This document shows, one piece after another, positions 6,169 to 42,424 of a stretch of 64,000 bases of DNA. The stretch comes from Dehalococcoidia bacterium. GTDB taxonomy: Bacteria > Chloroflexota > Dehalococcoidia > Lucifugimonadales > UBA3495. How positions within the stretch are numbered: position 1 is the first letter of the stretch; each line of letters begins with the position of its first letter. Position numbers and translations under genes: made by a program. The stretch spans positions 2,791,634 through 2,855,633 of the forward strand of contig OZ244064.1 in NCBI GenBank assembly GCA_965215425.1, read 5' to 3'. The notes below the pieces were generated by a model, which made no database searches, had not been told where the DNA came from, and saw nothing but the letters and a program-made list of their open reading frames with translations.

Positions 6169-6244
6169 GGGCGGTTAGCTCAGTGGTTAGAGCGCCTCGT
6201 TCACACCGAGGAGGTCGGAGGTTCAAATCCTCCATCGCCCACCA
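6169..6244 (+). tRNA. tRNA-Val (anticodon CAC), CCA encoded
   Basis: Hand-folded cloverleaf: acceptor GGGCGGT/ATCGCCC, D arm GCTC..GAGC, anticodon stem CCTCG/CGAGG with loop TTCACAC, T arm GGAGG-TTCAAAT-CCTCC. Confidence 0.9.
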
Positions 6245-6286
6245 TACGAGGCTCGGTTCGATGGGGATCGGTTCCGGTTTAACCCG

Positions 6287-6373
6287 GCCGAGGTGGCGAA
6301 ACGGCAGACGCGCTGCGTTCAGGGCGCAGTGTCCTTTATGGACGTGTGGGTTCAAATCCCTCCCTCGGCACCA
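6287..6373 (+). tRNA. tRNA-Leu (anticodon CAG), long variable arm, CCA encoded
   Basis: Acceptor GCCGAGG/CCTCGGC, anticodon stem CTGCG/CGCAG with loop TTCAGGG, long variable arm, T loop TTCAAAT. Confidence 0.9.
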
Positions 6374-6472
6374 TCTTTTCCGGTAGTATTGTATTGTCGG
6401 TCCGACCTCCCGCAAGACGTTGAGCCTCCCGTCGGAAAAGAATATATCGTCAGACATCGGCGCCGGGAACAC

Positions 6473-6548
6473 GCGCTTGTAGCTCAGCGGATAGAGCGCT
6501 GCCCTGCGGAGGCAGAGGTCGTGGGTTCGAGTCCCACCAAGCGCGCCA
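6473..6548 (+). tRNA. tRNA-Arg (anticodon GCG), CCA encoded
   Basis: Acceptor GCGCTTG/CAAGCGC, anticodon stem CTGCC/GGCAG with loop CTGCGGA, T arm GTGGG-TTCGAGT-CCCAC. Confidence 0.9.
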
Positions 6549-6621
6549 GCTACGCCAGCTACCGGGAACCGTTAGGTAAACCCCGGCCCCCTCTTCCGCT
6601 AATGACCGGAGCCTTACTTTC

Positions 6622-6698
6622 GGGCGGTTAGCTCAGATGGCTAGAGCGCCTGCTTTACACGCAGGAGGTCACTGGTTCGAGTCCAGTACTGCCCACCA
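6622..6698 (+). tRNA. tRNA-Val (anticodon TAC), CCA encoded
   Basis: Acceptor GGGCGGT/ACTGCCC, anticodon stem CCTGC/GCAGG with loop TTTACAC, T arm ACTGG-TTCGAGT-CCAGT. Confidence 0.9.
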
Positions 6699-23217: not shown

Positions 23218-23586
23218 TCAAAGTAATTTAGTCCAAATGACCATCGCCCGAATCTGGCAGATGGCCAAGTAGGAAAGGGAGTTCTTGGCATACCGGGTTG
23301 CCACCCCCCGCCACTGCTTGAAGTCCAGGAAGCCGTTTTCCACCAGGTGGCGCAGCTTGTACAGCGCCCGGTCATACTCCCGCTTTTCCCGGCGATTGCT
23401 CTTGGGCGGTATTACCGGGTTCATGCCCAACTCCGAGGCCGCAGCTATGATTTCATTGGTGTCGTAGGCTTTGTCAGCCAGCAGACACTCCGCTTCGATG
23501 CCTTCAATCAGGGGCAAGGCTTGGGTGCAGTCCGCCGCCGTGCCTCCGGTCACCATTACCCTTACCGGCATTCCGTGGGCATCCAC
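23218..23586 (-). CDS. IS5-family transposase, OrfB (DDE catalytic part, -1 frame)
   Basis: The -1 frame is open upstream of the listed Met and reads (R)GLNTKLHLAVDAHGMPVRV..LLADKAYD...IPPKSNR..YK.RHLVENGF..K.WRG.ATRY. It joins OrfA across the run ACAAAAGGGGGC (about 23595-23606). Confidence 0.85.
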   Translation of the reverse strand: MDAHGMPVRVMVTGGTAADCTQALPLIEGIEAECLLADKAYDTNEIIAAASELGMNPVIPPKSNRREKREYDRALYKLRHLVENGFLDFKQWRGVATRYAKNSLSYLAICQIRAMVIWTKLL

Positions 23587-23606
23587 CGCCAGATGCAGTT
23601 TGGTGT

Positions 23607-23996
23607 TCAGCCCCCTTTTGTGCGGGCGATGGCCTGGCTTCCGCCCTGGGCCCCGGCGCTGTGGGGATGGGCCTTGATGTAACTGGCGTCAATCATCAAC
23701 CATTCAAAATCAGGATCGTCGACCAGGGCATCCAGCAGCATGTCCCATACCCCTCTGTCCCGCCAGCGGCAGAAGCGGCGGTGGGTGTTCTTCCAATCCC
23801 CATAGTCCGGGGGCAGGTCCCGCCAGGGGGCGCCGGTGCGCAAAATCCAGAACACGGCGTTGAGAAAGAGACGATTATCGCAGGCGGGCCGGCCCGTCTT
23901 GCCCTTGCCGCCTGGGAGAAGGGGGTCCAGGACTTCCCATACCCGGTCTGAAATATCGTGACGCCGGTGCGCCGGCACTGCCATTGCTGCTGACAT
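23607..23996 (-). CDS. IS5-family transposase, OrfA (N-terminal part)
   Basis: GRPACDNRLFLNAVFWILRTGAPWRDLP..YG.W..THRRFCRWRDRGVW is the typical DUF4096/IS5 N-terminal region. The ORF ends in ...ARTKGG-stop. Confidence 0.85.
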   Translation of the reverse strand: MSAAMAVPAHRRHDISDRVWEVLDPLLPGGKGKTGRPACDNRLFLNAVFWILRTGAPWRDLPPDYGDWKNTHRRFCRWRDRGVWDMLLDALVDDPDFEWLMIDASYIKAHPHSAGAQGGSQAIARTKGG

Positions 23997-24062: not shown

Positions 24063-25001
24063 CTAGCGAACGGGCGGGTTCACCCGGATTTCGGGATCAT
24101 TGACGTCGAAGATCTCCGCGGTCATTACTGATACCAACTGCCGACCTGATTCCCCTTGAAGTGCGGGTAGGCCCATCATTTCAGCTAATACCTCCTGGTT
24201 AGCAACCGAACGCGCTTTTATTGCTACCGGCCAAGCGCCATCTTCGGCAATCCACACCTTCAACTCCTCGAAGGTAATGCCTTCCAGCTCCGCCGGTTGA
24301 ATCCCAAAGTCGCTGAGAGCCTCCAGCACTTCCCCCATATCATAGCGAATTGCTGGTACGCCGTTGTATTGTTCCGGTTGTCCCTCCATATCCTGGATCG
24401 AGAGGGTAGCAAAATCATCCCAGAAAGTAGGGGAGGCTGCACATAGTTCCATTGACTCTGCAACCACTGCGTCCTGGATAACAGTGGCGCGAAAACCCTC
24501 CCCGGTCTTAACCCAGGCGCTATTTCCAATCACCACCACTTCCTCTCCCGGAAAGGCCAGGCCACCCAGGGAAAATCTATGCTTGCAGGTGAACCGATCC
24601 GGCGCCTCGAATTCACCTTGAACCCAGATAGAGAAAATCCCCTCTTGTCCGTCTGCGCCAAGTAAGATTGTAGTTTTGTGCCGGTAGCTGTCCAGGTGCG
24701 CCATAGGGGAATTGGCCGCAACCTGCGGGGTTGGCGTGGGGGTAGGGGTATTGGTGGGGATATTGGTAGGCGCAGGCCAGGGCGTAGGCGTTGGGATCGG
24801 TGTAGCCGTAGGCGCCGGCGTTGGCGTGGGAATAGGCGTGGCGGTAGGCGCTGGGGTAATTGTTGGTTGGGAGCTAATAGCTGCGGCGATCGTTGCTGGA
24901 ATGTCCGGCGTTGCCGTTGGAGCAATCTGGCTACACCCGGTAACTCCCACCAGGATTATGCATAGCATTGATGCGGCAACCCGGAGTTCCTTTGCAGCCA
25001 T
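24063..25001 (-). CDS. Secreted lipoprotein with tandem Pro/Thr linker, function unknown
   Basis: Signal peptide plus lipobox (LVGVTGC). Duplicated PAPTATPIPTPT units. Globular C-terminal domain of about 200 aa that I do not recognise. Confidence 0.6.
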   Translation of the reverse strand: MAAKELRVAASMLCIILVGVTGCSQIAPTATPDIPATIAAAISSQPTITPAPTATPIPTPTPAPTATPIPTPTPWPAPTNIPTNTPTPTPTPQVAANSPMAHLDSYRHKTTILLGADGQEGIFSIWVQGEFEAPDRFTCKHRFSLGGLAFPGEEVVVIGNSAWVKTGEGFRATVIQDAVVAESMELCAASPTFWDDFATLSIQDMEGQPEQYNGVPAIRYDMGEVLEALSDFGIQPAELEGITFEELKVWIAEDGAWPVAIKARSVANQEVLAEMMGLPALQGESGRQLVSVMTAEIFDVNDPEIRVNPPVR

Positions 25002-30041: not shown

Positions 30042-30815
30042 TCAATCTCCCGCTGGTATGCCCTGGGTTAACGTTTGGAACTGGCCGGGCGGAACGCCGT
30101 CCGATCGACGGCCGGAACGGGCCGAGGGTTCTACCGCAGTCAGATGGTGGTCCATTGCTTGCCGGCAGCCAGCGGCGTCGCCGCTTTCGACCATCCGCAA
30201 AATCCGGCGGTGGGACTCCAGGGAACGCTGGGGACGGCCCGGCTCCTGCAACGACTTATCCCGGGACATCTGGAGGATGTCCTCAATGGCGCTGACCACC
30301 TTAACCAAGGCCGAGTTATGGGTAGCCGCCGCCAGAGTGAAGTGAAAGGCGGTGTCCGACTCCACTCCAGTCTCCCCCAAGTCAATCTGCCGCTGCTGTT
30401 CGGTCAGGATTTCCCGCATCCGACACACCTGGTCGGCGGTAGCCCGCTGGGCGGCCAGCGCGGCGATGTGAGGTTCCATCAGGTGGCGCATCTCGAAAAT
30501 GTCCTGCAGGGCCGCTGCTCCGCCGTTCAGGTTGGCCGCCAGCAGGTCCAGTGCCGCATCCAGGTTCTCGGTGTTGATAAAGGTGCCGGAACCCCGCCTG
30601 CTGACCACCAGCCCCTGCAATTCCAAAGCGCGAATCGCCTCCCGCACCGAACTGCGGCTGACCTGGAACTGCTCGGCCAGTTCCCGCTCCGCCGGCAGCC
30701 GGTCGCCATGCTTCAGCGCCCCCTGCCGGAGCAGGGCGTGAAACTGCTGCACAATGTCCTCGTACAGCCGCCGCCGCGTAACCTGGTGTATCTGCCGCTG
30801 CATCGCCGCATCCAC
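30042..30815 (-). CDS. GntR-family transcriptional regulator, FadR/FCD subfamily (LldR/PdhR-like)
   Basis: wHTH GDRLPAERELAEQFQVSRSSVREAIRALELQGLVVSRRGSGTFI plus an all-helical FCD-type C-terminal domain. Confidence 0.85.
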   Translation of the reverse strand: MDAAMQRQIHQVTRRRLYEDIVQQFHALLRQGALKHGDRLPAERELAEQFQVSRSSVREAIRALELQGLVVSRRGSGTFINTENLDAALDLLAANLNGGAAALQDIFEMRHLMEPHIAALAAQRATADQVCRMREILTEQQRQIDLGETGVESDTAFHFTLAAATHNSALVKVVSAIEDILQMSRDKSLQEPGRPQRSLESHRRILRMVESGDAAGCRQAMDHHLTAVEPSARSGRRSDGVPPGQFQTLTQGIPAGD

Positions 30816-30826
30816 GTTAAGGCAAG

Positions 30827-30837
30827 TGGTCAGACCA
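30827..30837. promoter_or_regulatory. Candidate autoregulatory operator TGGTCAGACCA
   Basis: Perfect TGGTC-N-GACCA inverted repeat between the predicted -10 box and the regulator start codon. It extends to ACCAATT, as in PdhR/LldR-type boxes. Confidence 0.45.
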
Positions 30838-30853
30838 ATTAAAGGGTGAGGCT

Positions 30854-30881
30854 ATTATACTATGGGAAGCGGGCTTGTCAA
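30854..30881 (-). promoter_or_regulatory. Strong sigma70-type promoter for the GntR regulator
   Basis: Minus strand: consensus TTGACA (30881-30876), 16-nt spacer, consensus TATAAT (30859-30854). Confidence 0.55.
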
Positions 30882-30976
30882 GGCGCGGGACCAGCGACTT
30901 CCATTTACTTTTAGGATTTGGCGTTATACCATACGGAGGGCGCATACGCACGCAACGGCGAAAGGAGTCAAGGCCA

Positions 30977-31456
30977 ATGTCAGCGAGGAAGATCACTTCA
31001 CGCACCAGGCAAATACGAACCCGCGCGGCGTCCTTACCCCCCCCCCCCCCCCCCCCCCCCCCGATTTTACACCCCTACTTGTCCGATAATGCCCTGGTTT
31101 GCGCCGACAATCTGGATACCCTCCGGGAGTTACCGGACGAGTGCGTTGCTCTGATTTACGCGACCGCTCCTTTCAACAGCAACCACAACTACCTGGCCGC
31201 CTTGGGCGCCCAAGGCCGGGTTGATGCCCAACGGCGCGACATCCGGCGTTGGACTGTTGAGCCCGACACCCAGTACCAGCCAGCCAACGGCGTTGCCCAT
31301 CCTAACATCCGTCCGCGCCAGGCAAAGCAGCCCCGGCGGGACATCGTACCCCGGGATGGTGCGCTCCCGCCGCAACACAAGCGGTTCCCGAAACTGGCCG
31401 CGGAACCGGGCCAAGATGGGAAAGCCGAAGGAGGGCATCACCATCAGGGCTTATAG
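30977..31456 (+). pseudogene. DNA methyltransferase N-terminal remnant containing the poly(C) tract
   Basis: AAGGAG (30962-30967) plus ATG 30977. The translation runs ...PPPPPPPPP-ILHPYLSDNALVCADNLDTLRELPDECVALIYATAPFNSNHNY. This resembles the N-terminus and motif IV region of N6A/N4C MTases, but DPPF is replaced by TAPF. Similarity is lost afterwards and no AdoMet motif was seen in any frame. Confidence 0.4.
31037..31062. repeat. Homopolymeric C26 tract
   Basis: Counted directly: C from 31037 through 31062, uninterrupted. Confidence 0.95.
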
Positions 31457-31660
31457 GGCTTATCCCCCGTTGGTCGCAAGAGGCCGCCCACTGGATGCCA
31501 GGTCCCCTTCCCGGATGCTTATACCCCCGTCGGTCGGAAGAAGTACCCGAGCTTAACGGGTAAACCCTGAAAGTAAACCGAACCTCCTTGAAAATGAAAC
31601 TCCGGCCGAATCCCTCTGATATTATAGTGGTCAGGCTAATTCGCCCAGGAAGCATTTATT

Positions 31661-33421
31661 GTGAAATCCGGACTCTCGCCGATTCTAATCGTTATCAGCC
31701 TGATGTTCCTGGTGGGCTGTGGAGCGTCGTCTCCCCCGGACCTGGCAACAGTGGTTGAACAAGTAGCGAGTGGCGTAGTTCGTATTGACACCCCTGACGG
31801 GAGCGGCTCCGGCGTTATCTTTGATACCACCGAGGACGGTGGCGCCCTGGTGTTGACCAACCATCACGTGGTGAAAGGCGCCAGCAGGATCGGCGTAGAG
31901 GTGGATGACTCAGATACTTACCGCGGAATCATTCAAGGCTTTGACGTTCAGATTGATCTGGCCGTATTAAGCATCTGCTGCGGGGATTTCCAGGTTTTGC
32001 CTTTTGGCGATGTACTCGAAATCATGCCGGGCAGTGAAGTAATTGTAATGGGCTATCCCCTGGGGTTGGCCGGCGCTCCGACCGTTACTCGCGGGATCGT
32101 ATCGGCCATTCGTCCCATGGGAGATTTTGAAATCATCCAGATCGACGCACCCCTGAACCCGGGAAATAGCGGCGGCCCCCTCCTGTCATTATCCGGGGAG
32201 GTATTAGGTATAAACACTTTCTCGATTAATAATACGGAAGGGTTAGGATTCGCTTTGTCGGAAAGGGCGGTACAGGCAAGTCTCTCGGAATTATCCGAGA
32301 AGAGAAGCCTTGCCGTCGCCACCCCCGCGCCGGCCTCTGCTCCAACTCCCGTAAATACGCCTACCCCGGCGCCCACCCCGGAGGCAGGGCTTTACTATGA
32401 CACCTCGGGCGGGATAGTAACGCCGGCCTGGACGGTTACGGCGACCCCGCGGCCAACTTCTACTTCTACTTCTGCTCCAACTGCGACGCCTGCCCGAACC
32501 CCGACGCCCGGACCTGCTCCTGTGCCGTCGTCCACCCCGTCGCCCGAACCCTTGAAATTAATTGCGGTCAGTACCGGCAGCGCAGAGTTTACCTGCGGAC
32601 TTCGATTAGATGGCACACCGGTCTGCTGGGGTTATCCCGAGGTAGGAATTCCGCCCGAAGGGGAGGACCTCCAGGATTTCCTGAAGGAGATCAGTCCCGG
32701 TTTAGTAGCTCTGCCCACAGGAGAGGAACTGACGGCAATCAGTAGCGGCCAGGTTCATGCATGCGGGCTGCGTACGAATGGCACACCCGTCTGCTGGGGA
32801 CGGGAAAGGCATATCGGGCGGGTGCCTGAGGGTGAAAAATTTACATCAATCAGCGCCGGAGCCGGATTCACCTGTGGACTGCGCGCGGACGGCGCCGCGG
32901 TTTGCTGGGGAGGTCCCGGGGGAGTGCCTACTGCGAAAGAGAAGTTTAAGTTCATCAGCAGTCATTATTCGGACGCTTGTGCCATACGGTTAGACGGAAC
33001 GCTGCATTGCTGGGGAGGCCAACGTGGTGTAGAGCTTCCTCCCTTGCCAGAGGGGGAAAAATTCATATCGGTCAGTGGCAACTGTGGACTGCGTAACGAC
33101 AGCGCTTTACTCTGCTGGGGCGGGCAGGAGTGGAACGAATGGTGGGATCGGGATCGCCTGCCACCCGAAGGCGAAAAGTTTAAGGCCATCAGCGGTAACT
33201 GCGGGCTACTGTTGGACGGCGCTCCGGTTTGCTGGGGCAAAGATCGTAACGGTTATGGTGAAACAAGCCCGCCTGAAGGGGAAAAGTTTGTAGCCATCAG
33301 CAGCAGTAGGCGGCACGGTGGGGAACACGTTTGCGCGCTGCGCGCCGATGGCATTCCAATTTGCTGGGGTCGTAATAACTGGGAAGAGGCGACTCCGCCT
33401 GCAGCGTCTATCCATAATTGA
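31661..33421 (+). CDS. Lipoprotein: S1 (trypsin-like) serine protease, Pro/Thr linker and seven RCC1-like repeats
   Basis: Lipobox MFLVGC. Triad contexts TNHHVV, DLAVL, NPGNSGGPLL. PT-rich linker. Seven units of C(G/A)LR.(D/N)G....CWG spaced by PEGEKF..IS. Confidence 0.8.
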   Translation: MKSGLSPILIVISLMFLVGCGASSPPDLATVVEQVASGVVRIDTPDGSGSGVIFDTTEDGGALVLTNHHVVKGASRIGVEVDDSDTYRGIIQGFDVQIDLAVLSICCGDFQVLPFGDVLEIMPGSEVIVMGYPLGLAGAPTVTRGIVSAIRPMGDFEIIQIDAPLNPGNSGGPLLSLSGEVLGINTFSINNTEGLGFALSERAVQASLSELSEKRSLAVATPAPASAPTPVNTPTPAPTPEAGLYYDTSGGIVTPAWTVTATPRPTSTSTSAPTATPARTPTPGPAPVPSSTPSPEPLKLIAVSTGSAEFTCGLRLDGTPVCWGYPEVGIPPEGEDLQDFLKEISPGLVALPTGEELTAISSGQVHACGLRTNGTPVCWGRERHIGRVPEGEKFTSISAGAGFTCGLRADGAAVCWGGPGGVPTAKEKFKFISSHYSDACAIRLDGTLHCWGGQRGVELPPLPEGEKFISVSGNCGLRNDSALLCWGGQEWNEWWDRDRLPPEGEKFKAISGNCGLLLDGAPVCWGKDRNGYGETSPPEGEKFVAISSSRRHGGEHVCALRADGIPICWGRNNWEEATPPAASIHN

Positions 33422-33543
33422 TAATTGATAGTATCTTTTGCTTGCCCTGGCGTTAGCCCAATCGCCGCCTATTATGTTAAACTTGCCCGGCGCCGGGCAG
33501 CCGGGCGCGTCGCATTATCCTTGAACGGCGGGAGGTATCCAGC

Positions 33544-35241
33544 GTGTCCCCACGACGGAAAGCGGGAGAGGCGGTTATTGAATTGCTCCGGCAGGAAGGG
33601 GTTTCCCATATCTTTGGTATTGTAGGTTCCTCTTTCCTGGACATTCTGGACCCGCTGTATGATGACGACTCCATGCAGTTCGTCGGGGTGCGGCATGAGC
33701 AAGGGGCGGCGCTGATGGCCGATGGGTTCAGCCGCATCTCCGGCGCCCCCTCCGTCTGCCTGGCAACCAACGGCCCCGGCGTGCTGAACCTGACCTACGG
33801 CATCGGCTCGGCCTACGTCGCCCATTCGCCGGTAGTGGTCCTGGCCCCTTCGGCTTCCCGGGACCACCAACACCGGGACTCCACCCAGGAGTTCGACCAA
33901 GTGGCCCTGTTCAAGCCCATCACCAAGGCCAGCTTTCCCATTAACAAGATTGAGCGGCTGCCCGATGCCCTGCGCCAGGCTTTCCGGGTCGCTACCTCGG
34001 GCAAGATGGGGCCGGTGCTGGTGGATATTCCCCGGGACTTGCTGCCCGGCGCCGAGATTGACCTGGAACCGCTGCCTCCGGAGAGCTACCGTTCTGGCCA
34101 GACCCGGGCCCGGGGCGACCGCAACCTGGTGGACCAGGCGACCCGCACCTTGCTATCCGCCCAGCGGCCGGTCATCGTGGCCGGCGGCGGAATCCAGTGG
34201 AGCAACGCCGGCGAGGCGGTAACGCGCCTGGCCGACCTGCTGGGCGCCGCCATCGTTACCTCCTACGGGCGGGCCGACGCCGTCCCCAACGACCATCCCC
34301 TGTTCCTGGGCCACCTGGGGCGTTTGGGGGCCGCGGAAGGCATTGAGGCAATCCGCCAGGCCGACGTGATTCTGGCGGCCGGCACCCGTCTGGGCCAGTC
34401 CACCACTTTTTATGATAACCGCTTCATTCCGGCGGACGCCCGCATCGTCCAGATTGAGATCGACCCGCAGGAAATCGGGCGCAACTATCCCGTAGCCGTG
34501 GGCATTGAAGGCGACGCCCAGGCAGTGCTGGCTGACTTGCTGGAGCAGACGCGGGCGCGGGAGCCGCGCCCCAACGCCCAGTGGGTTGCCGAAATCCACG
34601 ATTGGGCCGCCCGCCGCCACCATCGGCTGGAGGCCGAGGGCCGGCTCAATTCTACCCCGCTCAAGCCGCAGCGGGTCTATGCGGAATTGCGCAAGGTAAT
34701 GCCCCGAGACGCTATTGTAGCCCTGGACGCCGGGCTGGCCCCCAACTTCGGGCAGGACCGGCTTAATTTCTACCAGCCCCGCAGTCTGATGACCTCCCTG
34801 GACCTGGGCGGCCTGGGCTTCAGCTTTCCCGCCTCCCTGGGCGCCAGGTTTGCTGCCCCGGAGCGACCGGTGGTCAACTTCAATGGCGACGGCGGCTTTC
34901 TCTTCAACGCCCAGGAGTTCGCCACGGCGGTACGCTACAATCTCCAGGTGGTTACCGTGATTATGAACAATAGCTGCTGGGGTTCGGAAAAGGCGTACCA
35001 GCGTTATGCTTTTGCCGAACGCTACGTCGGCGCCGATACCAATAATCCCCGCTATGACCGCTATGCCGAGTTGTTTGGCGGAACCGGCTTTTACGTGGAA
35101 CGGGCCGAGGAGTTGGGCGATGCTCTGCTGACCGCCCTGCAAACCGAAGGCCCCAGCATTATTGAAATCCCCACCGACCCGGATGAGATGCCCCGGCCGG
35201 CGCGTCTGGCCGAGGTGCAGTCCCCGGAGGCGCGTTCCTGA
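33544..35241 (+). CDS. Thiamine-diphosphate enzyme of the acetolactate synthase / oxalyl-CoA decarboxylase superfamily
   Basis: N-terminal Pyr domain (FGIVGSSFLD..VRHEQGAALMADG). C-terminal TPP motif NGDGGFLFN...VIMNN. GTG start with SD GGGAGG. Confidence 0.8.
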   Translation: MSPRRKAGEAVIELLRQEGVSHIFGIVGSSFLDILDPLYDDDSMQFVGVRHEQGAALMADGFSRISGAPSVCLATNGPGVLNLTYGIGSAYVAHSPVVVLAPSASRDHQHRDSTQEFDQVALFKPITKASFPINKIERLPDALRQAFRVATSGKMGPVLVDIPRDLLPGAEIDLEPLPPESYRSGQTRARGDRNLVDQATRTLLSAQRPVIVAGGGIQWSNAGEAVTRLADLLGAAIVTSYGRADAVPNDHPLFLGHLGRLGAAEGIEAIRQADVILAAGTRLGQSTTFYDNRFIPADARIVQIEIDPQEIGRNYPVAVGIEGDAQAVLADLLEQTRAREPRPNAQWVAEIHDWAARRHHRLEAEGRLNSTPLKPQRVYAELRKVMPRDAIVALDAGLAPNFGQDRLNFYQPRSLMTSLDLGGLGFSFPASLGARFAAPERPVVNFNGDGGFLFNAQEFATAVRYNLQVVTVIMNNSCWGSEKAYQRYAFAERYVGADTNNPRYDRYAELFGGTGFYVERAEELGDALLTALQTEGPSIIEIPTDPDEMPRPARLAEVQSPEARS

Positions 35242-40225: not shown

Positions 40226-42424
40226 TTGTTGCGCCTTTATAATAGCCTGAGTAAGCAAGTAGATGAAATTCGCACCATCGAACCGGGCCGGGTACGGATG
40301 TACACCTGCGGCCCTACGGTGTACCGCTACGCCCATATTGGCAACCTGCGCACCTACATGATGGCGGACTGGATCCGGCGCGCCCTGGAAATCGGCGGCA
40401 ACGAAGTTTATCACGTCAAGAACATTACCGACGTGGGTCATATGCGCCAGGAGTTGGTGGAGGCCGGCGGCGACAAGATGATCCTCGCCGCCCTCGCCGA
40501 AGGCAAGACAATCCAGGAGATTGCCCAGTTTTACGCCGATAGTTTCCACCAAGACGAGGCGCGGGTCAACATTCTCCCCGCCCACGTTTATCCCTGGGCG
40601 ACCCAGCACATCCCGGAAATGATTTCTCTGGTAGAACGCTTGATGGCTAACGGTTATGCCTATCTGGCCGGGGAAAACGTTTACTTCGACGTCCCCCAGT
40701 TTTCCAGGTATGGCAACCTTTCGCGAAATTTCGGCGGCAACCTGCTGGAAGGGGTAAGAGCAGATGCGGATCCCCTCAAACGCGATCCCCGGGACTTTAC
40801 CCTGTGGAAAGCCGCCGAGCCGGGCCGGGATGTGAAGTGGGACAGTCCCTGGGGTGAAGGTTTCCCCGGCTGGCATATTGAATGTTCGGCGATGGCGCAC
40901 AAGTATTTGGGCGAGCGTTTCGACCTCCACACCGGCGGCGTGGATAATATCTTCCCGCACCACGAGGATGAGATTGCCCAGAGCGAGGGCGCCTTTGGCG
41001 CTACCCACGTCAATTACTGGGTGCACGGTCAGCATCTGTTGGCCGACGGGGCCAAAATGGCCAAGTCCTCGGGCAACGTATTTTTGCTGGACGACCTGGT
41101 CTCCCGCGGCATTGACCCTCTTTCCTTCCGCTACCTGTGCATGACGGTTCGGTATCGACGCCGGATGAACTTCACCTTCAACTCCCTCAAGGCCAGCGAG
41201 AAAGCCCTTTCCAACTTGCGCAACCGGGTCTGGGAATGGAAAAACCTGCCGGAACTGCCGGAACTGCCCCCGGAAACCGAGGAGTGGCGGGAAAGGTTTT
41301 GGAAGGCCGTAGAGAATGACCTGGATTTACCCACCGGCCTGGCCCTTACCTGGGACATGGTCCGCTCCGGTCTGCCTCCCCAGGCGAAACTGTCCCTCCT
41401 GCTGGATTTCGACCGGCTGTTCGGGCTTGACCTGGACCGGGTGCCGGCCACCTATCCAGTACCGGAGCCGGTCGCAGCCGCCCTGGGCCGGCGCAGCGCC
41501 CTCCGGGAGGAGGTCAACTATTCTACCGCCGATACCCTGCGGGCCGAGTTGGCCTCCAGGGGCTATATAGTCCAGGACACGCCCCGGCTGACCCGCATCC
41601 GGCCCAAGACCCCCTTGGAGCAACTGGAAGGGCGCTGGCGCTGGGTGTCCTCGTCGCGGGAGGTGGACTCGGCCCTCGATTCCCCCGACCGCTATGACTT
41701 TACCTTCATCCTCAACGCTTACAACTACGCCGAAGACGTGCAACGGTGCGTAACTGCTATGCGGGCCTTTTCCCAAGGCTTTAGCGCTGAGATTATTGTA
41801 ATTGACAACGGCTCCACCGACGCCACCGCCGAATGGCTGGAGCAATATCAAGCCGTTAACACCGACTTTCGCGTGGTTCATTGCGACCATGTTATTGGCG
41901 ACGCGGCCGGCAAGAATATCGGCCTGAAGCTGAGCCGGGGCAAGTACATAGTCATCCTGGATGCCTCTACCGAGCTAACCGGAGATGTCCTGGGGCCAAT
42001 CGCCCGGCAGTTGTCCGATGAGTCCGTTGGTATCTTCGGCCCTTACGGCCTCACCACCGACGATATGCAACATTTTCACGAAGAGGTAGAAAAGGGCGAG
42101 GCGGACGCCATGCAGGCTTACTGCATGGCCTTCCGGCGGGAGGCGGTGCGTAAAGTGGGTCTGATGCACGAGGGGTTTCGCTTTTACCGGAACCTGGACA
42201 TTGACTATTGCTTCCAGTTCAAGGAAAGGGGCTACCGGGTGGTGGCCGACAACAGCCTTCCACTGGCACGCCACGAACATCGGCAATGGACTGAATTGGA
42301 GGACGGGCAGCGGGACGAATTGAGCCGCAAGAACTTTGGACGGTTCCTGCGTCGCTGGGGAAATCGGCCGGACCTGCTTATTTCCGCTAACGCCCGGGGC
42401 TTTCAAACCGGCTTCCGGCACTAA
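40226..42424 (+). CDS. cysS: Cysteinyl-tRNA-synthetase-family domain fused to a C-terminal family-2 glycosyltransferase domain
   Basis: CysRS motifs CGPTVY, HIGN, WHIECSAM, FPHHEDEIAQSE, KMAKS and a C-terminal ADTLRAELASRGY.VQD. From about residue 490 come FTFILNAYNYAEDV..IIVIDNGSTDAT...ILDAS (GT-A/GT2). TTG start with SD GGGAGGA. Confidence 0.85.
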   Translation: MLRLYNSLSKQVDEIRTIEPGRVRMYTCGPTVYRYAHIGNLRTYMMADWIRRALEIGGNEVYHVKNITDVGHMRQELVEAGGDKMILAALAEGKTIQEIAQFYADSFHQDEARVNILPAHVYPWATQHIPEMISLVERLMANGYAYLAGENVYFDVPQFSRYGNLSRNFGGNLLEGVRADADPLKRDPRDFTLWKAAEPGRDVKWDSPWGEGFPGWHIECSAMAHKYLGERFDLHTGGVDNIFPHHEDEIAQSEGAFGATHVNYWVHGQHLLADGAKMAKSSGNVFLLDDLVSRGIDPLSFRYLCMTVRYRRRMNFTFNSLKASEKALSNLRNRVWEWKNLPELPELPPETEEWRERFWKAVENDLDLPTGLALTWDMVRSGLPPQAKLSLLLDFDRLFGLDLDRVPATYPVPEPVAAALGRRSALREEVNYSTADTLRAELASRGYIVQDTPRLTRIRPKTPLEQLEGRWRWVSSSREVDSALDSPDRYDFTFILNAYNYAEDVQRCVTAMRAFSQGFSAEIIVIDNGSTDATAEWLEQYQAVNTDFRVVHCDHVIGDAAGKNIGLKLSRGKYIVILDASTELTGDVLGPIARQLSDESVGIFGPYGLTTDDMQHFHEEVEKGEADAMQAYCMAFRREAVRKVGLMHEGFRFYRNLDIDYCFQFKERGYRVVADNSLPLARHEHRQWTELEDGQRDELSRKNFGRFLRRWGNRPDLLISANARGFQTGFRH

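What the first reader, a model, noticed from the sequence alone, without database searches (positions are those of the whole stretch)
31661..33421. Lipoprotein combining an S1 serine protease with a seven-repeat RCC1-like propeller
One 586-aa ORF contains four parts in order. First, a lipoprotein signal (lipobox LVGC). Second, a trypsin/HtrA-like S1 domain with an intact triad context (TNHHVV, DLAVL, GNSGGPL). Third, a roughly 90-aa Pro/Thr/Ala linker. Fourth, seven tandem repeats, each with C(G/A)LR.(D/N)G....CWG and mostly preceded by PEGEKF..IS. The repeat count and motif fit an RCC1/BLIP-II-type seven-bladed beta-propeller, and each blade carries two conserved Cys, suggesting extracytoplasmic disulfides. 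A surface-tethered protease carrying its own propeller, a likely ligand- or substrate-recognition module, is an unusual architecture with no function I can assign. The gene looks lower in GC than the flanking core genes (by eye). It sits next to the MTase stump and poly(C) tract, so the 30.9-33.4 kb stretch may be a small acquired islet. A second PT-linker lipoprotein of unknown function (24063-25001) lies next to the IS element.
Basis: partly seen in the sequence, partly recalled or inferred. Interest (0 to 1): 0.55.

Follow-up and report, generated by a model that had tools for sequence, protein, structure and literature searches.

The report
Lipoprotein protease with cysteine-stapled propeller
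A Chloroflexota bacterium carries, in a swappable slot of its genome, a membrane-tethered HtrA-like protease whose usual PDZ domain is replaced by a seven-bladed, cysteine-stapled propeller most like the ectodomain of plant CRINKLY4 receptors. The design is real and untested experimentally, but it is common in this lineage, not a one-off.

Summary
ORF 31661-33421 (+) encodes 586 aa in four parts:
- a lipoprotein signal (LVGC, Cys20);
- an S1C/HtrA-type protease domain (Trypsin_2 E=4e-29) whose triad H69/D99/S170 is invariant in 43 homologues;
- a disordered Pro/Thr/Ala linker of about 80 aa;
- seven C-x9-CWG repeats (RCC1_2 E=1e-20) that AlphaFold2 models as a seven-blade, three-strand-per-blade propeller (pTM 0.84).

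Three refinements.
1. The closest solved relative of the propeller is the CRINKLY4/ACR4 plant receptor ectodomain, by sequence (E=4e-18) and by fold. BLIP-II and RCC1 are more distant. In the CRINKLY4 crystal structures the aligned Cys pair is a disulfide in every blade.
2. The architecture is not rare. 87 of the best 120 database clusters carry both domains, often with a lipobox and a PT linker. The same protease cassette is also found fused to other C-terminal modules, most clearly LRRs.
3. The "islet" idea is supported. Window DNA 30884-33528 is missing from the GntR|TPP-enzyme junction of close relatives, which hold other cargo there, and the gene's GC3 is 0.58 against about 0.75.

Best reading: an accessory, surface-tethered endopeptidase that uses a fast-evolving propeller on a leash to recruit targets. 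Substrate unknown. Moderate interest.

The parts
30884..33528 (.). Window-specific variable segment ('islet') between the GntR/FCD regulator gene and the ThDP-enzyme gene. It holds the MTase relic, the poly(C) tract and the protease-propeller gene.
   Evidence: blastn against syntenic loci of relatives: homology stops at about 30883 and resumes at about 33529. L012 has 471 bp there and L010 has 2.4 kb of different cargo. GC is 0.583, in the lowest 0.65% of same-length windows.
31037..31062 (+). Poly(C) tract of 26 nt
   Evidence: Read directly. All three short-read contigs of the sister strain end at this point.
31085..31198 (+). Relic of the N-terminal part of a type II DNA methyltransferase. 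Motif IV has decayed to TAPFN.
   Evidence: PADLOC MTase_II E=9.4e-6, residues 71-104 of ORF 30875-31456 matching profile positions 11-44 of 302. No Pfam hit. There are indels relative to the sister strain.
31617..31641 (+). Possible extended -10 element (TGATATTAT, 31617-31625) followed by a GntR-operator-like site (GTGGTCAGGCTAATT, 31627-31641)
   Evidence: Differs by 2 mismatches from the perfect palindromic site at 30826-30840. Inference only; the site is less well kept in the sister strain.
31647..31652 (+). Shine-Dalgarno-like AGGAAG, 8 nt before the GTG start
   Evidence: Read directly.
31661..33421 (+). Coding sequence of the 586-aa lipoprotein protease-propeller fusion (end includes the stop codon)
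   Evidence: dN/dS against the sister strain is 0.285.
31661..31720 (+). Signal peptide with lipobox L-V-G-C. Cys20 is the predicted lipid-modified first residue of the mature protein.
   Evidence: Sequence pattern. Cys is conserved in 32/43 homologues. A lipobox-like motif is present in 52 of 86 fusion homologues.
31775..32296 (+). S1C (HtrA-type) chymotrypsin-fold protease domain, residues 39-212. Triad codons: H69 31865-31867, D99 31955-31957, S170 32168-32170. Conserved vicinal Cys106-Cys107.
   Evidence: Pfam Trypsin_2; PDB sequence hits to HtrA/HTRA1/DegS/DegQ; Foldseek hits to MucD/DegQ/DegP/DegS/HTRA1/Rv3671c, target TM up to 0.84; pLDDT mostly 85-96; triad invariant.
32303..32545 (+). 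Disordered Pro/Thr/Ala-rich linker, residues 215-295
   Evidence: Composition. pLDDT <50 for 215-284. 7 of 19 aa substitutions plus a 2-aa indel against the sister strain fall here.
32546..33385 (+). Seven-bladed, three-strand-per-blade RCC1-superfamily propeller of the 'crinkly' type, residues 296-575. It has seven C-x9-CWG units, and blade 2 carries an insertion of about 28 aa.
   Evidence: Pfam RCC1_2; AF2 pLDDT 84.6, pTM 0.84, 21 strands; Foldseek best hits 7a0j/7a0k; phmmer against PDB 7a0k/7a0j E=4e-18; all 14 Cys invariant or nearly so.
30042..30815 (-). Flanking core gene: GntR/FCD-family regulator. A perfect sigma-70 promoter lies at 30881..30854 and a palindromic operator-like site at 30826-30840.
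   Evidence: Pfam GntR+FCD; promoter scan 12/12; conserved in relatives.
33544..35241 (+). Flanking core gene: ThDP-dependent enzyme (acetolactate-synthase-like). Used as the synteny and taxonomy anchor.
   Evidence: Pfam TPP_enzyme_N/M/C. 87-94% identical orthologues, some named Chloroflexota/Chloroflexi (87-89%) and Dehalococcoidia (84%).

Best explanation
The gene encodes an accessory, extracytoplasmic endopeptidase of a Chloroflexota (probably Dehalococcoidia-related) bacterium.

Shown:
- The N-terminus has a lipobox.
- The protease domain is an HtrA-clade (S1C) chymotrypsin fold with a complete, conserved H69-D99-S170 triad and a GNSGGP oxyanion-hole motif.
- There is no PDZ domain.
- The C-terminal 280 aa form a seven-bladed RCC1-superfamily propeller. 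Each blade carries the C-x9-CWG 'crinkly' motif, which forms a blade-stapling disulfide in the plant CRINKLY4 ectodomain.
- The two folded domains are joined by a disordered PT linker of about 80 residues.
- The gene sits in a variable genomic slot and belongs to a large, modular, fast-diverging family.

Inferred:
- After Lgt/LspA processing the protein hangs from the outer face of the cytoplasmic membrane by Cys20. The protease lies close to the membrane and the oxidised, disulfide-stapled propeller sits on a flexible leash.
- The propeller takes the place of the PDZ domain of classical HtrA proteases as the target-binding module. It captures a macromolecular ligand (a protein or glycoconjugate from the environment or the cell envelope) and so raises that ligand's local concentration at the tethered active site (recruitment, not allosteric gating).
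- The protease cassette is kept (59-75% identity). The C-terminal module is exchanged (propeller, LRR, others) or diverges (34% identity outside the repeat core). This points to changing targets, i.e. niche-adaptive surface proteolysis such as protein scavenging or processing of extracellular or surface proteins, and not housekeeping envelope quality control.
For: - Domain calls.
- Triad and Cys invariance.
- Disordered linker and independent domains.
- Propeller model and its best matches.
- A disulfide in each CRINKLY4 blade, and the C(X~10)CWG motif: bioRxiv 10.1101/2020.08.10.245050 and PMC4617170.
- Family size and recurring four-part design: 87/120 clusters with both Pfam domains; of the 86 fusions by motif count, 52 have a lipobox-like motif and 61 a PT-rich linker.
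- Same lipoprotein-protease cassette (SPPDLATMVEEVR..., DLAVLSICC) fused to other C-termini: clearly LRRs in P0111; matches to other Pfam models (BamE-like, MORN, CelD_N, DUF7323, DUF3862) are weak, most of them with no stretch significant on its own; three paralogues show no recognisable C-terminal domain. None has a PDZ.
- Protease 59-75% identical against propeller 40-52% within the near subfamily; repeat core 65% against non-core 34%.
- Purifying but relaxed selection against the sister strain: dN/dS 0.285 against 0.081 for the neighbouring gene, with 1 change in the protease, 7 in the linker and 11 in the propeller.
- Accessory status: the gene is absent from the syntenic slot in relatives whose flanking genes are 90-94% identical. 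A genome whose DXS is 91% identical and whose flanking ThDP enzyme is 94% identical has only a 47%-identical homologue elsewhere. Homologues lie in unrelated contexts next to toxin-antitoxin and transposase genes with no conserved partner gene. GC3 is anomalous.
Against: - No experiment exists on any member, and the substrate and ligand are unknown.
- Lipidation is inferred from a pattern only. No signal-peptide predictor was available, and Lgt/LspA were not looked for in this genome.
- Disulfides are inferred by homology.
- The order anchor-protease-linker-propeller would also fit a propeller that anchors the enzyme to an envelope polymer instead of catching substrates.
- Classical HtrA proteases work as trimers or oligomers gated by PDZ domains. 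Whether this one oligomerises or is regulated is unknown.
- Taxonomy rests on names attached to orthologues of the neighbouring gene, not on a marker phylogeny.
Confidence: 0.55

Rival explanations
1. Housekeeping envelope quality-control protease. This would be a functional HtrA/DegP equivalent in which the propeller replaces the PDZ domains as sensor of misfolded proteins and allosteric activator.
For: The best sequence and structure matches of the protease domain are HtrA/DegP/DegQ/DegS/MucD/HTRA1. The location is extracytoplasmic and the triad is intact.
Against: The gene is absent from the syntenic site of close relatives and has no conserved context. There are several divergent paralogues with interchangeable C-terminal modules. 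A disordered 80-aa linker makes direct allosteric coupling unlikely. GC3 is atypical. All HtrA NCBIfam models score far below their cut-offs.
Confidence: 0.12
2. The propeller is an envelope-anchoring or localisation module. It would bind an S-layer, cell-wall or exopolysaccharide component, so that the protein spans membrane to wall and processes the cell's own surface proteins, not external targets.
For: The domain order places the propeller distal on a long leash. In the same hit list, RCC1_2 propellers occur with Pfam families that I recall as SLH (PF00395) and PG_binding_1 (PF01471) wall-binding domains, in other proteins. The list gives accession numbers only; the family names are from memory.
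Against: Fast divergence of the propeller surface and swapping for LRR and other modules fit variable targets better than a conserved wall polymer. There is no direct evidence either way.
Confidence: 0.2
3. The protein is part of an inter-organism conflict system (anti-phage, anti-competitor or host interaction). A hypervariable recognition propeller would direct a surface protease against foreign proteins such as phage receptor-binding proteins.
For: The gene lies in a slot that in relatives holds a methyl-directed restriction enzyme, a dCTP-deaminase-like gene and toxin-antitoxin genes, and in this window holds an MTase relic. The binding module is variable. Homologues lie next to TA and transposase genes.
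Against: The PADLOC hits are only generic trypsin-domain similarity (RT-Protease_XI E=1.5e-12). Integration hotspots collect any accessory gene. No fusion was found on IMG/VR viral contigs. No known defence system works this way.
Confidence: 0.08
4. BLIP-II-like inhibitor: the propeller binds and blocks a secreted enzyme (for example a beta-lactamase or a protease), and the protease domain is secondary.
For: BLIP-II (1jtd, 3qi0) is among the Foldseek hits (E about 1e-10) and is a secreted bacterial propeller with three-stranded blades.
Against: BLIP-II is not detected by sequence at E<=1, while CRINKLY4 scores 4e-18. TM scores to BLIP-II are lower (0.45-0.49). BLIP-II lacks the blade Cys pairs. 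The protease triad is invariant, so catalysis is selected for.
Confidence: 0.03

Closest known systems
HtrA/DegP/DegS (MEROPS S1C) extracytoplasmic serine proteases
   Same: Chymotrypsin-fold protease domain with a His-Asp-Ser triad and a GNSGGP motif. About 35-40% identity to T. maritima HtrA and human HTRA1 (E about 1e-24 to 1e-25). Target TM 0.75-0.84 to the DegS-deltaPDZ and HTRA1 protease domains. Extracytoplasmic targeting signal.
   Different: No PDZ domain at all. Lipid anchor instead of a soluble form or a TM helix. A PT linker plus seven-bladed propeller at the C-terminus. A conserved vicinal Cys106-Cys107. An accessory gene, not a core gene. All NCBIfam HtrA models score far below their cut-offs (135 bits against 416).
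CRINKLY4 (ACR4/PpCR4) receptor-kinase ectodomain propeller ('crinkly repeats'), PDB 7A0J/7A0K
   Same: Best PDB match by sequence (E=4e-18) and by fold (Foldseek E=8e-13, TM 0.69/0.74). Seven repeats of about 39 aa with C-x(9-11)-CWG and three-stranded blades. The Cys pairs align. In the crystal structures each pair is a blade-stabilising disulfide, interpreted as an adaptation to the extracellular milieu.
   Different: Bacterial, not plant. Fused to a protease instead of a TNFR-like cysteine-rich domain, TM helix and kinase. Spacing is x9, not about x10. A pore-filling N-terminal strand could not be checked. Only about 22-24% identity. The ligand is unknown in both cases.
BLIP-II (Streptomyces exfoliatus beta-lactamase inhibitor protein II), PDB 1JTD
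   Same: Secreted bacterial seven-bladed RCC1-superfamily propeller with short, three-stranded blades. Found by Foldseek (E about 1e-10).
   Different: No detectable sequence match at E<=1. Lacks the per-blade Cys pair. Stand-alone inhibitor, not fused to an enzyme.
MarP (Rv3671c) of Mycobacterium tuberculosis, a membrane-tethered periplasmic S1 protease without a PDZ domain
   Same: Trypsin_2-type protease held at the membrane and lacking a PDZ domain. NCBIfam MarP_fam_protase E=5e-23 (below cut-off). Foldseek 3lt3 E=4e-16, target TM 0.77.
   Different: MarP is anchored by four TM helices and has no C-terminal binding domain. It is a conserved gene with a role in acid resistance (the last two points are from my own knowledge, not tested here).
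Modular secreted hydrolases with Pro/Thr linkers and binding modules (e.g. cellulases with CBMs): analogy of design only
   Same: A catalytic cassette joined by a flexible PT-rich linker to an exchangeable binding module. Cassette shuffling is seen within the family.
   Different: Different catalytic class and different binding fold. The analogy rests on general knowledge, not on homology.

Membership tests
HtrA/DegP family (S1C protease with PDZ) | Chymotrypsin-fold protease domain with an aligned His-Asp-Ser triad | tested here: met
   Trypsin_2 E=3.8e-29. H69/D99/S170 align to the HtrA triad and are invariant in 43/43 homologues. Fold matches.
HtrA/DegP family (S1C protease with PDZ) | At least one C-terminal PDZ domain | tested here: not met
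   No PDZ hit in Pfam at E<=1. NCBIfam HtrA/Do models match only their protease part and score 68-135 bits against cut-offs of 408-800. The sequence after residue 215 is linker plus propeller.
HtrA/DegP family (S1C protease with PDZ) | Trimer-based oligomer | not testable with these tools
   Only monomer models were made.
RCC1/BLIP-II propeller superfamily (Pfam RCC1_2) | Repeats score above the Pfam gathering threshold | tested here: met
   RCC1_2 scores 72.9 bits against 22, with 5 stretches. WD40_RLD scores 37 bits against 150, so it is not met as a whole-domain model.
RCC1/BLIP-II propeller superfamily (Pfam RCC1_2) | Seven blades closing into a propeller | tested here: met
   The AF2 domain model has pLDDT 84.6, pTM 0.84 and 7 x 3 strands. 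The top 50 Foldseek hits are all seven-bladed RCC1-like propellers and cover the whole domain. This is a prediction, not a structure.
CRINKLY4-type propeller ('crinkly repeats') | Seven repeats of about 39 aa, each with C(X~10)CWG | tested here: met
   Seven C-x9-CWG units. Motif definition from PMC4617170. Best PDB sequence hits are 7a0k/7a0j at E=4e-18 with aligned Cys.
CRINKLY4-type propeller ('crinkly repeats') | One disulfide bond within each blade | not testable with these tools
   Inferred from aligned Cys, from their position on adjacent strands of one hairpin in the DSSP string, and from the signal peptide. No coordinates or chemistry were available.
CRINKLY4-type propeller ('crinkly repeats') | N-terminal strand buried in the propeller pore | not testable with these tools
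CRINKLY4 receptor kinases | TNFR-like cysteine-rich domain, TM helix and cytoplasmic kinase after the propeller | tested here: not met
   The protein ends 11 residues after blade 7, and there are no such Pfam hits. It shares the propeller type only.
Bacterial lipoproteins | Signal peptide ending in a lipobox [LVI][ASTVI][GAS]C | tested here: met
   K2 n-region, 13-residue hydrophobic core, then L-V-G-C20. Cys conserved in 32/43 homologues. A pattern match only.
Bacterial lipoproteins | Lgt/LspA machinery in the genome and actual lipidation | not tested
   Not searched for. Only a 64-kb window of a 3.3-Mb contig was available.
Genomic islet / horizontally acquired segment | Absent from the same site in close relatives | tested here: met
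   L012 has GntR-[471 bp]-ThDP enzyme. L010 has different cargo. Homology breaks at 30883 and 33529. The segment is present in the 96%-identical sister strain.
Genomic islet / horizontally acquired segment | Atypical composition | tested here: met
   GC3 is 0.584 against 0.754 +/- 0.056. The segment's GC of 0.583 is in the lowest 0.65% of same-length windows.
Genomic islet / horizontally acquired segment | Mobility signatures (integrase, flanking direct repeats, tRNA target) | tested here: not met
   No flanking repeats, no integrase or transposase ORF in 30.8-33.6 kb, and no tRNA nearby. Only an MTase relic is present.

The most novel reading that the evidence does not exclude
The cysteine-stapled 'crinkly' propeller was described in the CRINKLY4 structure paper as a unique feature of plant-specific receptor kinases. 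It may instead be a widespread bacterial extracytoplasmic recognition module. In Chloroflexota it would be coupled to a conserved lipoprotein protease cassette to form a family of hypervariable 'recognise-and-cut' surface effectors used in interactions with other organisms (phage, competitors or hosts). The bacterial modules could be the evolutionary source of the plant ectodomain.
Probability: 0.12. Interest if true: 0.7.

Novelty: new variant of a known kind. Interest (0 to 1): 0.35.

Why it matters
The result would define an HtrA-clade protease that has dropped the PDZ domain and instead uses exchangeable, leash-borne binding modules. That is a different answer to substrate selection at the cell surface, in a phylum with very few experimentally studied surface proteins.

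It also gives the plant CRINKLY4 ectodomain, whose ligand is still unknown, a large set of bacterial relatives with the same per-blade Cys staple. Those relatives can be used for comparative analysis of the ligand groove.

For genome annotation, it gives a concrete description to several thousand 'hypothetical' proteins.

It does not overturn anything. Every part is a known fold and the fusion is already abundant in sequence databases.

Tried and rejected
- The scan of genome contigs with the single protein returned only unrelated HtrA loci (Nicoletella, Levybacteria).
- The DXS search for taxonomy gave 120 close hits but no organism names. Taxonomy came instead from the neighbouring ThDP enzyme.
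- The listing of cluster members gave no names or accession numbers.
- Literature searches: 'RCC1 + Chloroflexi/sponge', 'RCC1 + serine protease + lipoprotein', 'RCC1_2/PF13540' (which matched algal strain numbers) and 'crinkly repeats + bacterial' found no description of this fusion or of bacterial crinkly repeats. The polymorphic-toxin paper mentions RCC1 only inside a strain name, so a polymorphic-toxin reading was dropped.
- Foldseek on the full-length model returned only protease hits, so a propeller-only model was made.
- PADLOC hits for the protease are generic trypsin similarity, so the gene was not classed as a defence gene.
- IMG/VR holds only protease-domain relatives and no fusion, so phage carriage was rejected.
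- No paralogue of either domain exists elsewhere in the window.
- No intrinsic terminator and no canonical -35/-10 promoter was found for the gene.
- No flanking direct repeats mark the islet.
- Model coordinates are not exposed. Cys-Cys distances, the pore strand and inter-domain contacts could therefore not be measured.
Full report
**1. The observation**

The ORF is at 31661..33421 on the + strand and encodes 586 aa from a GTG start. An AGGAAG ribosome-binding site lies 8 nt upstream. The product begins MKSGLSPILIVISLMFLVGC: one Lys, a 13-residue hydrophobic core and the lipobox L-V-G-C20.

Pfam finds Trypsin_2 at residues 49-184 (E=3.8e-29) and RCC1_2 in five stretches (E=1.4e-20). Both are far above their gathering scores. 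NCBIfam matches only the protease half of the Do/HtrA, HhoA, DegS, DegQ and MarP models. All scores are far below the curated cut-offs because nothing matches the PDZ part of those models.

Against PDB sequences, residues 43-216 match T. maritima HtrA (E=2e-25), human HTRA1/2, HhoA, DegS, DegQ and DegP. TNHHVV, DLAVL and GNSGGPL align on the catalytic His, Asp and Ser. In an alignment of 43 full-length homologues, H69, D99 and S170 are invariant.

Residues 218-300 contain 21 Pro, 18 Thr and 13 Ala out of 83.

Seven C-x9-CWG units follow, with Cys pairs 312/322, 368/378, 405/415, 440/450, 475/485, 514/524 and 558/568. At the DNA level they form seven copies at only 62-71% identity, so this is an old, diverged repeat and not a recent amplification.

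**2. Structure**

AlphaFold2 on the 43-sequence alignment gives a confident protease domain (pLDDT mostly 85-96), a disordered linker (pLDDT <50 for 215-284) and a confident C-terminal domain. The overall pTM is only 0.53, so there is no defined mutual orientation of the two domains. Foldseek with the full model finds MucD, DegQ, DegP, DegS, HTRA1 and M. tuberculosis Rv3671c, with target TM up to 0.84.

A model of residues 293-586 alone has pLDDT 84.6 and pTM 0.84. It shows 21 strands arranged as seven three-stranded blades. Its best PDB matches are:
- the 'CRINKLY WD40' ectodomains of Arabidopsis ACR4 and Physcomitrella CR4 (7a0j/7a0k, E about 1e-12, TM 0.69/0.74);
- then UVR8;
- then BLIP-II;
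- then RCC1 and the HERC2 RLDs.

Sequence search agrees and is sharper. 7a0k and 7a0j score E=4e-18, UVR8 1e-4 and yeast RCC1 3e-4. BLIP-II is not listed at E<=1.

The CRINKLY4 literature defines the repeat by a C(X~10)CWG core (PMC4617170). The crystal structures show that each of the seven blades is stabilised by a disulfide between exactly these Cys, read by the authors as an adaptation to the extracellular environment. They state that BLIP-II and UVR8 lack this pattern (bioRxiv 10.1101/2020.08.10.245050). In the HMMER alignments both Cys of three consecutive blades of the window protein align to the Cys of PpCR4.

In the model the two Cys lie on the second and third strands of each blade. 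With x9 spacing around an x-(D/N)-G turn they can sit directly opposite each other; this is an inference from the DSSP string. All 14 Cys are invariant or nearly so in the homologues.

The precise comparator is the crinkly repeat.

**3. How common is it?**

The collection of 5.8 billion clusters returns 5,154 significant relatives among the 8,000 candidates scored. Of the best 120 clusters, 87 carry both PF13365 and PF13540. By motif counting, 86 of them have GxSGG plus at least three C-x(8-12)-C[WYF]G units, and seven is the modal count. Of these, 52 have a lipobox-like motif in the first 45 residues and 61 have a 40-residue window with at least 50% Pro+Thr. So the whole four-part design recurs.

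An exhaustive phmmer search of 1.84 billion representatives (50% identity clusters) finds 3,039 proteins at E<=1e-30. These include about twenty distinct fusion clusters among the best 150. They also include giant proteins of up to 7,013 aa with up to 26 matched stretches of the same repeat.

Close paralogues keep the N-terminal cassette (lipoprotein signal, SPPDLATMVEEVR, DLAVLSICC; 53-72% identical over the aligned part) but carry other C-termini. P0111 clearly has LRRs. Matches to other Pfam models (BamE-like, MORN, CelD_N, DUF7323, DUF3862) are weak, most of them with no stretch significant on its own. Three paralogues show no recognisable C-terminal domain. None has a PDZ.

Only one relative carries an organism name ('Chloroflexi bacterium', hypothetical protein), and no paper found here describes the fusion. 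The architecture is thus common and catalogued by domain databases, but uncharacterised.

**4. Organism and genomic context**

The window's own sequence lies on a 3.3-Mb contig. Orthologues of the neighbouring ThDP enzyme that are 87-89% identical are named Chloroflexota or Chloroflexi bacterium, and one at 84% is named Dehalococcoidia bacterium.

A sister strain (protein 96-97% identical, GCA_964347845.1) has the same locus: MTase relic, gene, ThDP enzyme, GBBH-like, Zn-ribbon, DAO, cyclophilin-like, CoA-transferase and the CysRS-GT2 fusion.

In two relatives whose ThDP enzyme is 94% and 90% identical, the POR operon, the GntR/FCD regulator and the ThDP enzyme are syntenic but the protease gene is absent.
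- L012 has 471 bp between GntR and the ThDP enzyme, with a Phd-antitoxin-like relic.
- L010 has 2.4 kb there, carrying a methyl-directed restriction enzyme (PADLOC E=1e-52), a dCTP-deaminase/dUTPase-like gene and a Phd-type pair.

blastn places the breaks at window positions 30883 and 33529.

The genome of L010 (DXS 91% identical) has as its best homologue a protein only 47% identical, at another locus. Other homologues at 46-50% identity sit in unrelated contexts next to PIN/Phd, HicB, HepT/MNT and transposase genes. There is no conserved partner gene.

The gene's GC3 is 0.584 against 0.754 +/- 0.056 for 17 other genes of the window. The 2,645-bp segment is in the lowest 0.65% of same-length windows for GC. 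No integrase, flanking repeat or tRNA marks the segment.

It is best described as cargo in a variable hotspot between two core genes.

**5. Is the gene functional?**

Against the sister strain, dN/dS is 0.285, compared with 0.081 for the adjacent ThDP enzyme. There are 19 amino-acid changes: one in the protease domain, seven plus a 2-aa indel in the linker, and eleven in the propeller. None touches a Cys or the CWG motif.

Within the near subfamily the protease is 59-75% identical and the propeller 40-52%. Inside the propeller the 13-residue repeat cores are 65% identical and the rest 34%. The catalytic cassette is conserved, while the propeller surface and linker evolve fast.

**6. Mechanism**

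Shown:
- a lipobox signal;
- an intact S1C catalytic domain;
- no PDZ domain;
- a disordered leash;
- a crinkly-type seven-blade propeller;
- accessory, modular, fast-evolving family status.

Inferred:
- The protein is lipid-anchored on the outer face of the cytoplasmic membrane.
- The propeller is oxidised to seven intra-blade disulfides.
- The propeller acts as the target-binding module that PDZ domains provide in classical HtrA proteases.
- Because it sits on an 80-residue leash, it recruits targets and does not gate the active site.
- Exchange of the C-terminal module and divergence of the propeller surface point to changing targets. That fits niche-adaptive surface proteolysis (scavenging or processing of extracellular or surface proteins) better than housekeeping quality control.

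Rivals are a housekeeping HtrA equivalent, a propeller that anchors the enzyme to an envelope polymer, a conflict or defence effector, and a BLIP-II-like inhibitor. They are weighed in the rival list. None is excluded by experiment.

**7. Comparison and novelty**

The protein works like an HtrA-clade protease but fails the family's PDZ criterion. Its propeller belongs to the RCC1_2 superfamily and meets the sequence definition of crinkly repeats, but it is not a CRINKLY4 receptor kinase. MarP is a precedent for a membrane-tethered, PDZ-less Trypsin_2 protease.

I rate the finding a new variant of a known kind. Every part is known and the fusion is abundant in databases, but no member has been studied. 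The link between bacterial RCC1_2 repeats and the CRINKLY4 disulfide-stapled propeller was not found in the literature searched here.

Interest is moderate (0.35). It is kept above background by the CRINKLY4 connection and the clean modular, accessory pattern.

Noticed in passing
window 31037-31062 and 31085-31198: A 26-nt poly(C) tract lies inside a decayed type II DNA methyltransferase stump (PADLOC MTase_II E=9e-6; motif IV reads TAPFN). All three short-read contigs of the sister strain end exactly at the tract. The relic region also differs from the sister strain by a 140-bp and a 59-bp indel.
   Followed up: partly
L010 4531-6985; L012 6516-6986 (syntenic to window 30884-33528): The junction between the GntR/FCD regulator and the ThDP enzyme is a cargo hotspot. 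One relative carries a methyl-directed restriction enzyme (PADLOC mREase_II E=1e-52), a dCTP-deaminase/dUTPase-like gene and a Phd-type antitoxin pair. Another keeps only a Phd-like relic.
   Followed up: partly
window 30826-30840 and 31627-31641: A perfect palindromic FadR/GntR-type site, GTGGTCAGACCAATT, lies just downstream of a 12/12 sigma-70 promoter of the GntR gene (- strand). A copy with 2 mismatches lies directly after TGATATTAT and 20 nt before the protease start codon. About 0.1 such sites are expected per window (my estimate for a 15-mer with up to 2 mismatches on both strands). The sister strain's copy has 3 mismatches, so regulation by the neighbouring repressor is only a possibility.
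   Followed up: partly
window 24063-25001 (-) and 23218-23996 (-): The second PT-linker lipoprotein (lipobox VTGC; no Pfam, PADLOC or meaningful PDB match for its C-terminal domain) has the same low GC3 (0.569) as the protease gene. It lies next to a two-ORF IS5-like transposase (DUF4096-type N-terminal ORF plus a DDE C-terminal ORF). The same transposase type lies next to a protease-propeller homologue in L009.
   Followed up: partly
window 31976-31981 (Cys106-Cys107): A vicinal Cys-Cys ('SICCG') just after the catalytic Asp strand is conserved in 24/43 fusion homologues and in all ten examined paralogues with other C-terminal modules. These are the only Cys of the mature protease domain, which suggests a vicinal disulfide or a redox-sensitive site.
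   Followed up: partly
window 40226-42424 (+): A cysteinyl-tRNA synthetase catalytic domain is fused to a C-terminal family-2 glycosyltransferase domain (732 aa). The fusion is conserved at the same length in all relatives examined.
   Followed up: no
proteins P0363, P0366, P0385, P0413: Giant proteins of 6,285-7,013 aa contain 21-26 matched stretches of the same crinkly-type repeat, which implies many tandem propellers per protein.
   Followed up: no
L011 13774-15594 (-): In a more distant relative a 39%-identical protease-propeller paralogue (P0024) lies at the other end of the same conserved ThDP-enzyme to CoA-transferase block, at a rearrangement boundary.
   Followed up: no
window 6169-6698 (+): A cluster of four tRNA genes (Val-CAC, Leu-CAG, Arg-GCG, Val-TAC).
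   Followed up: no
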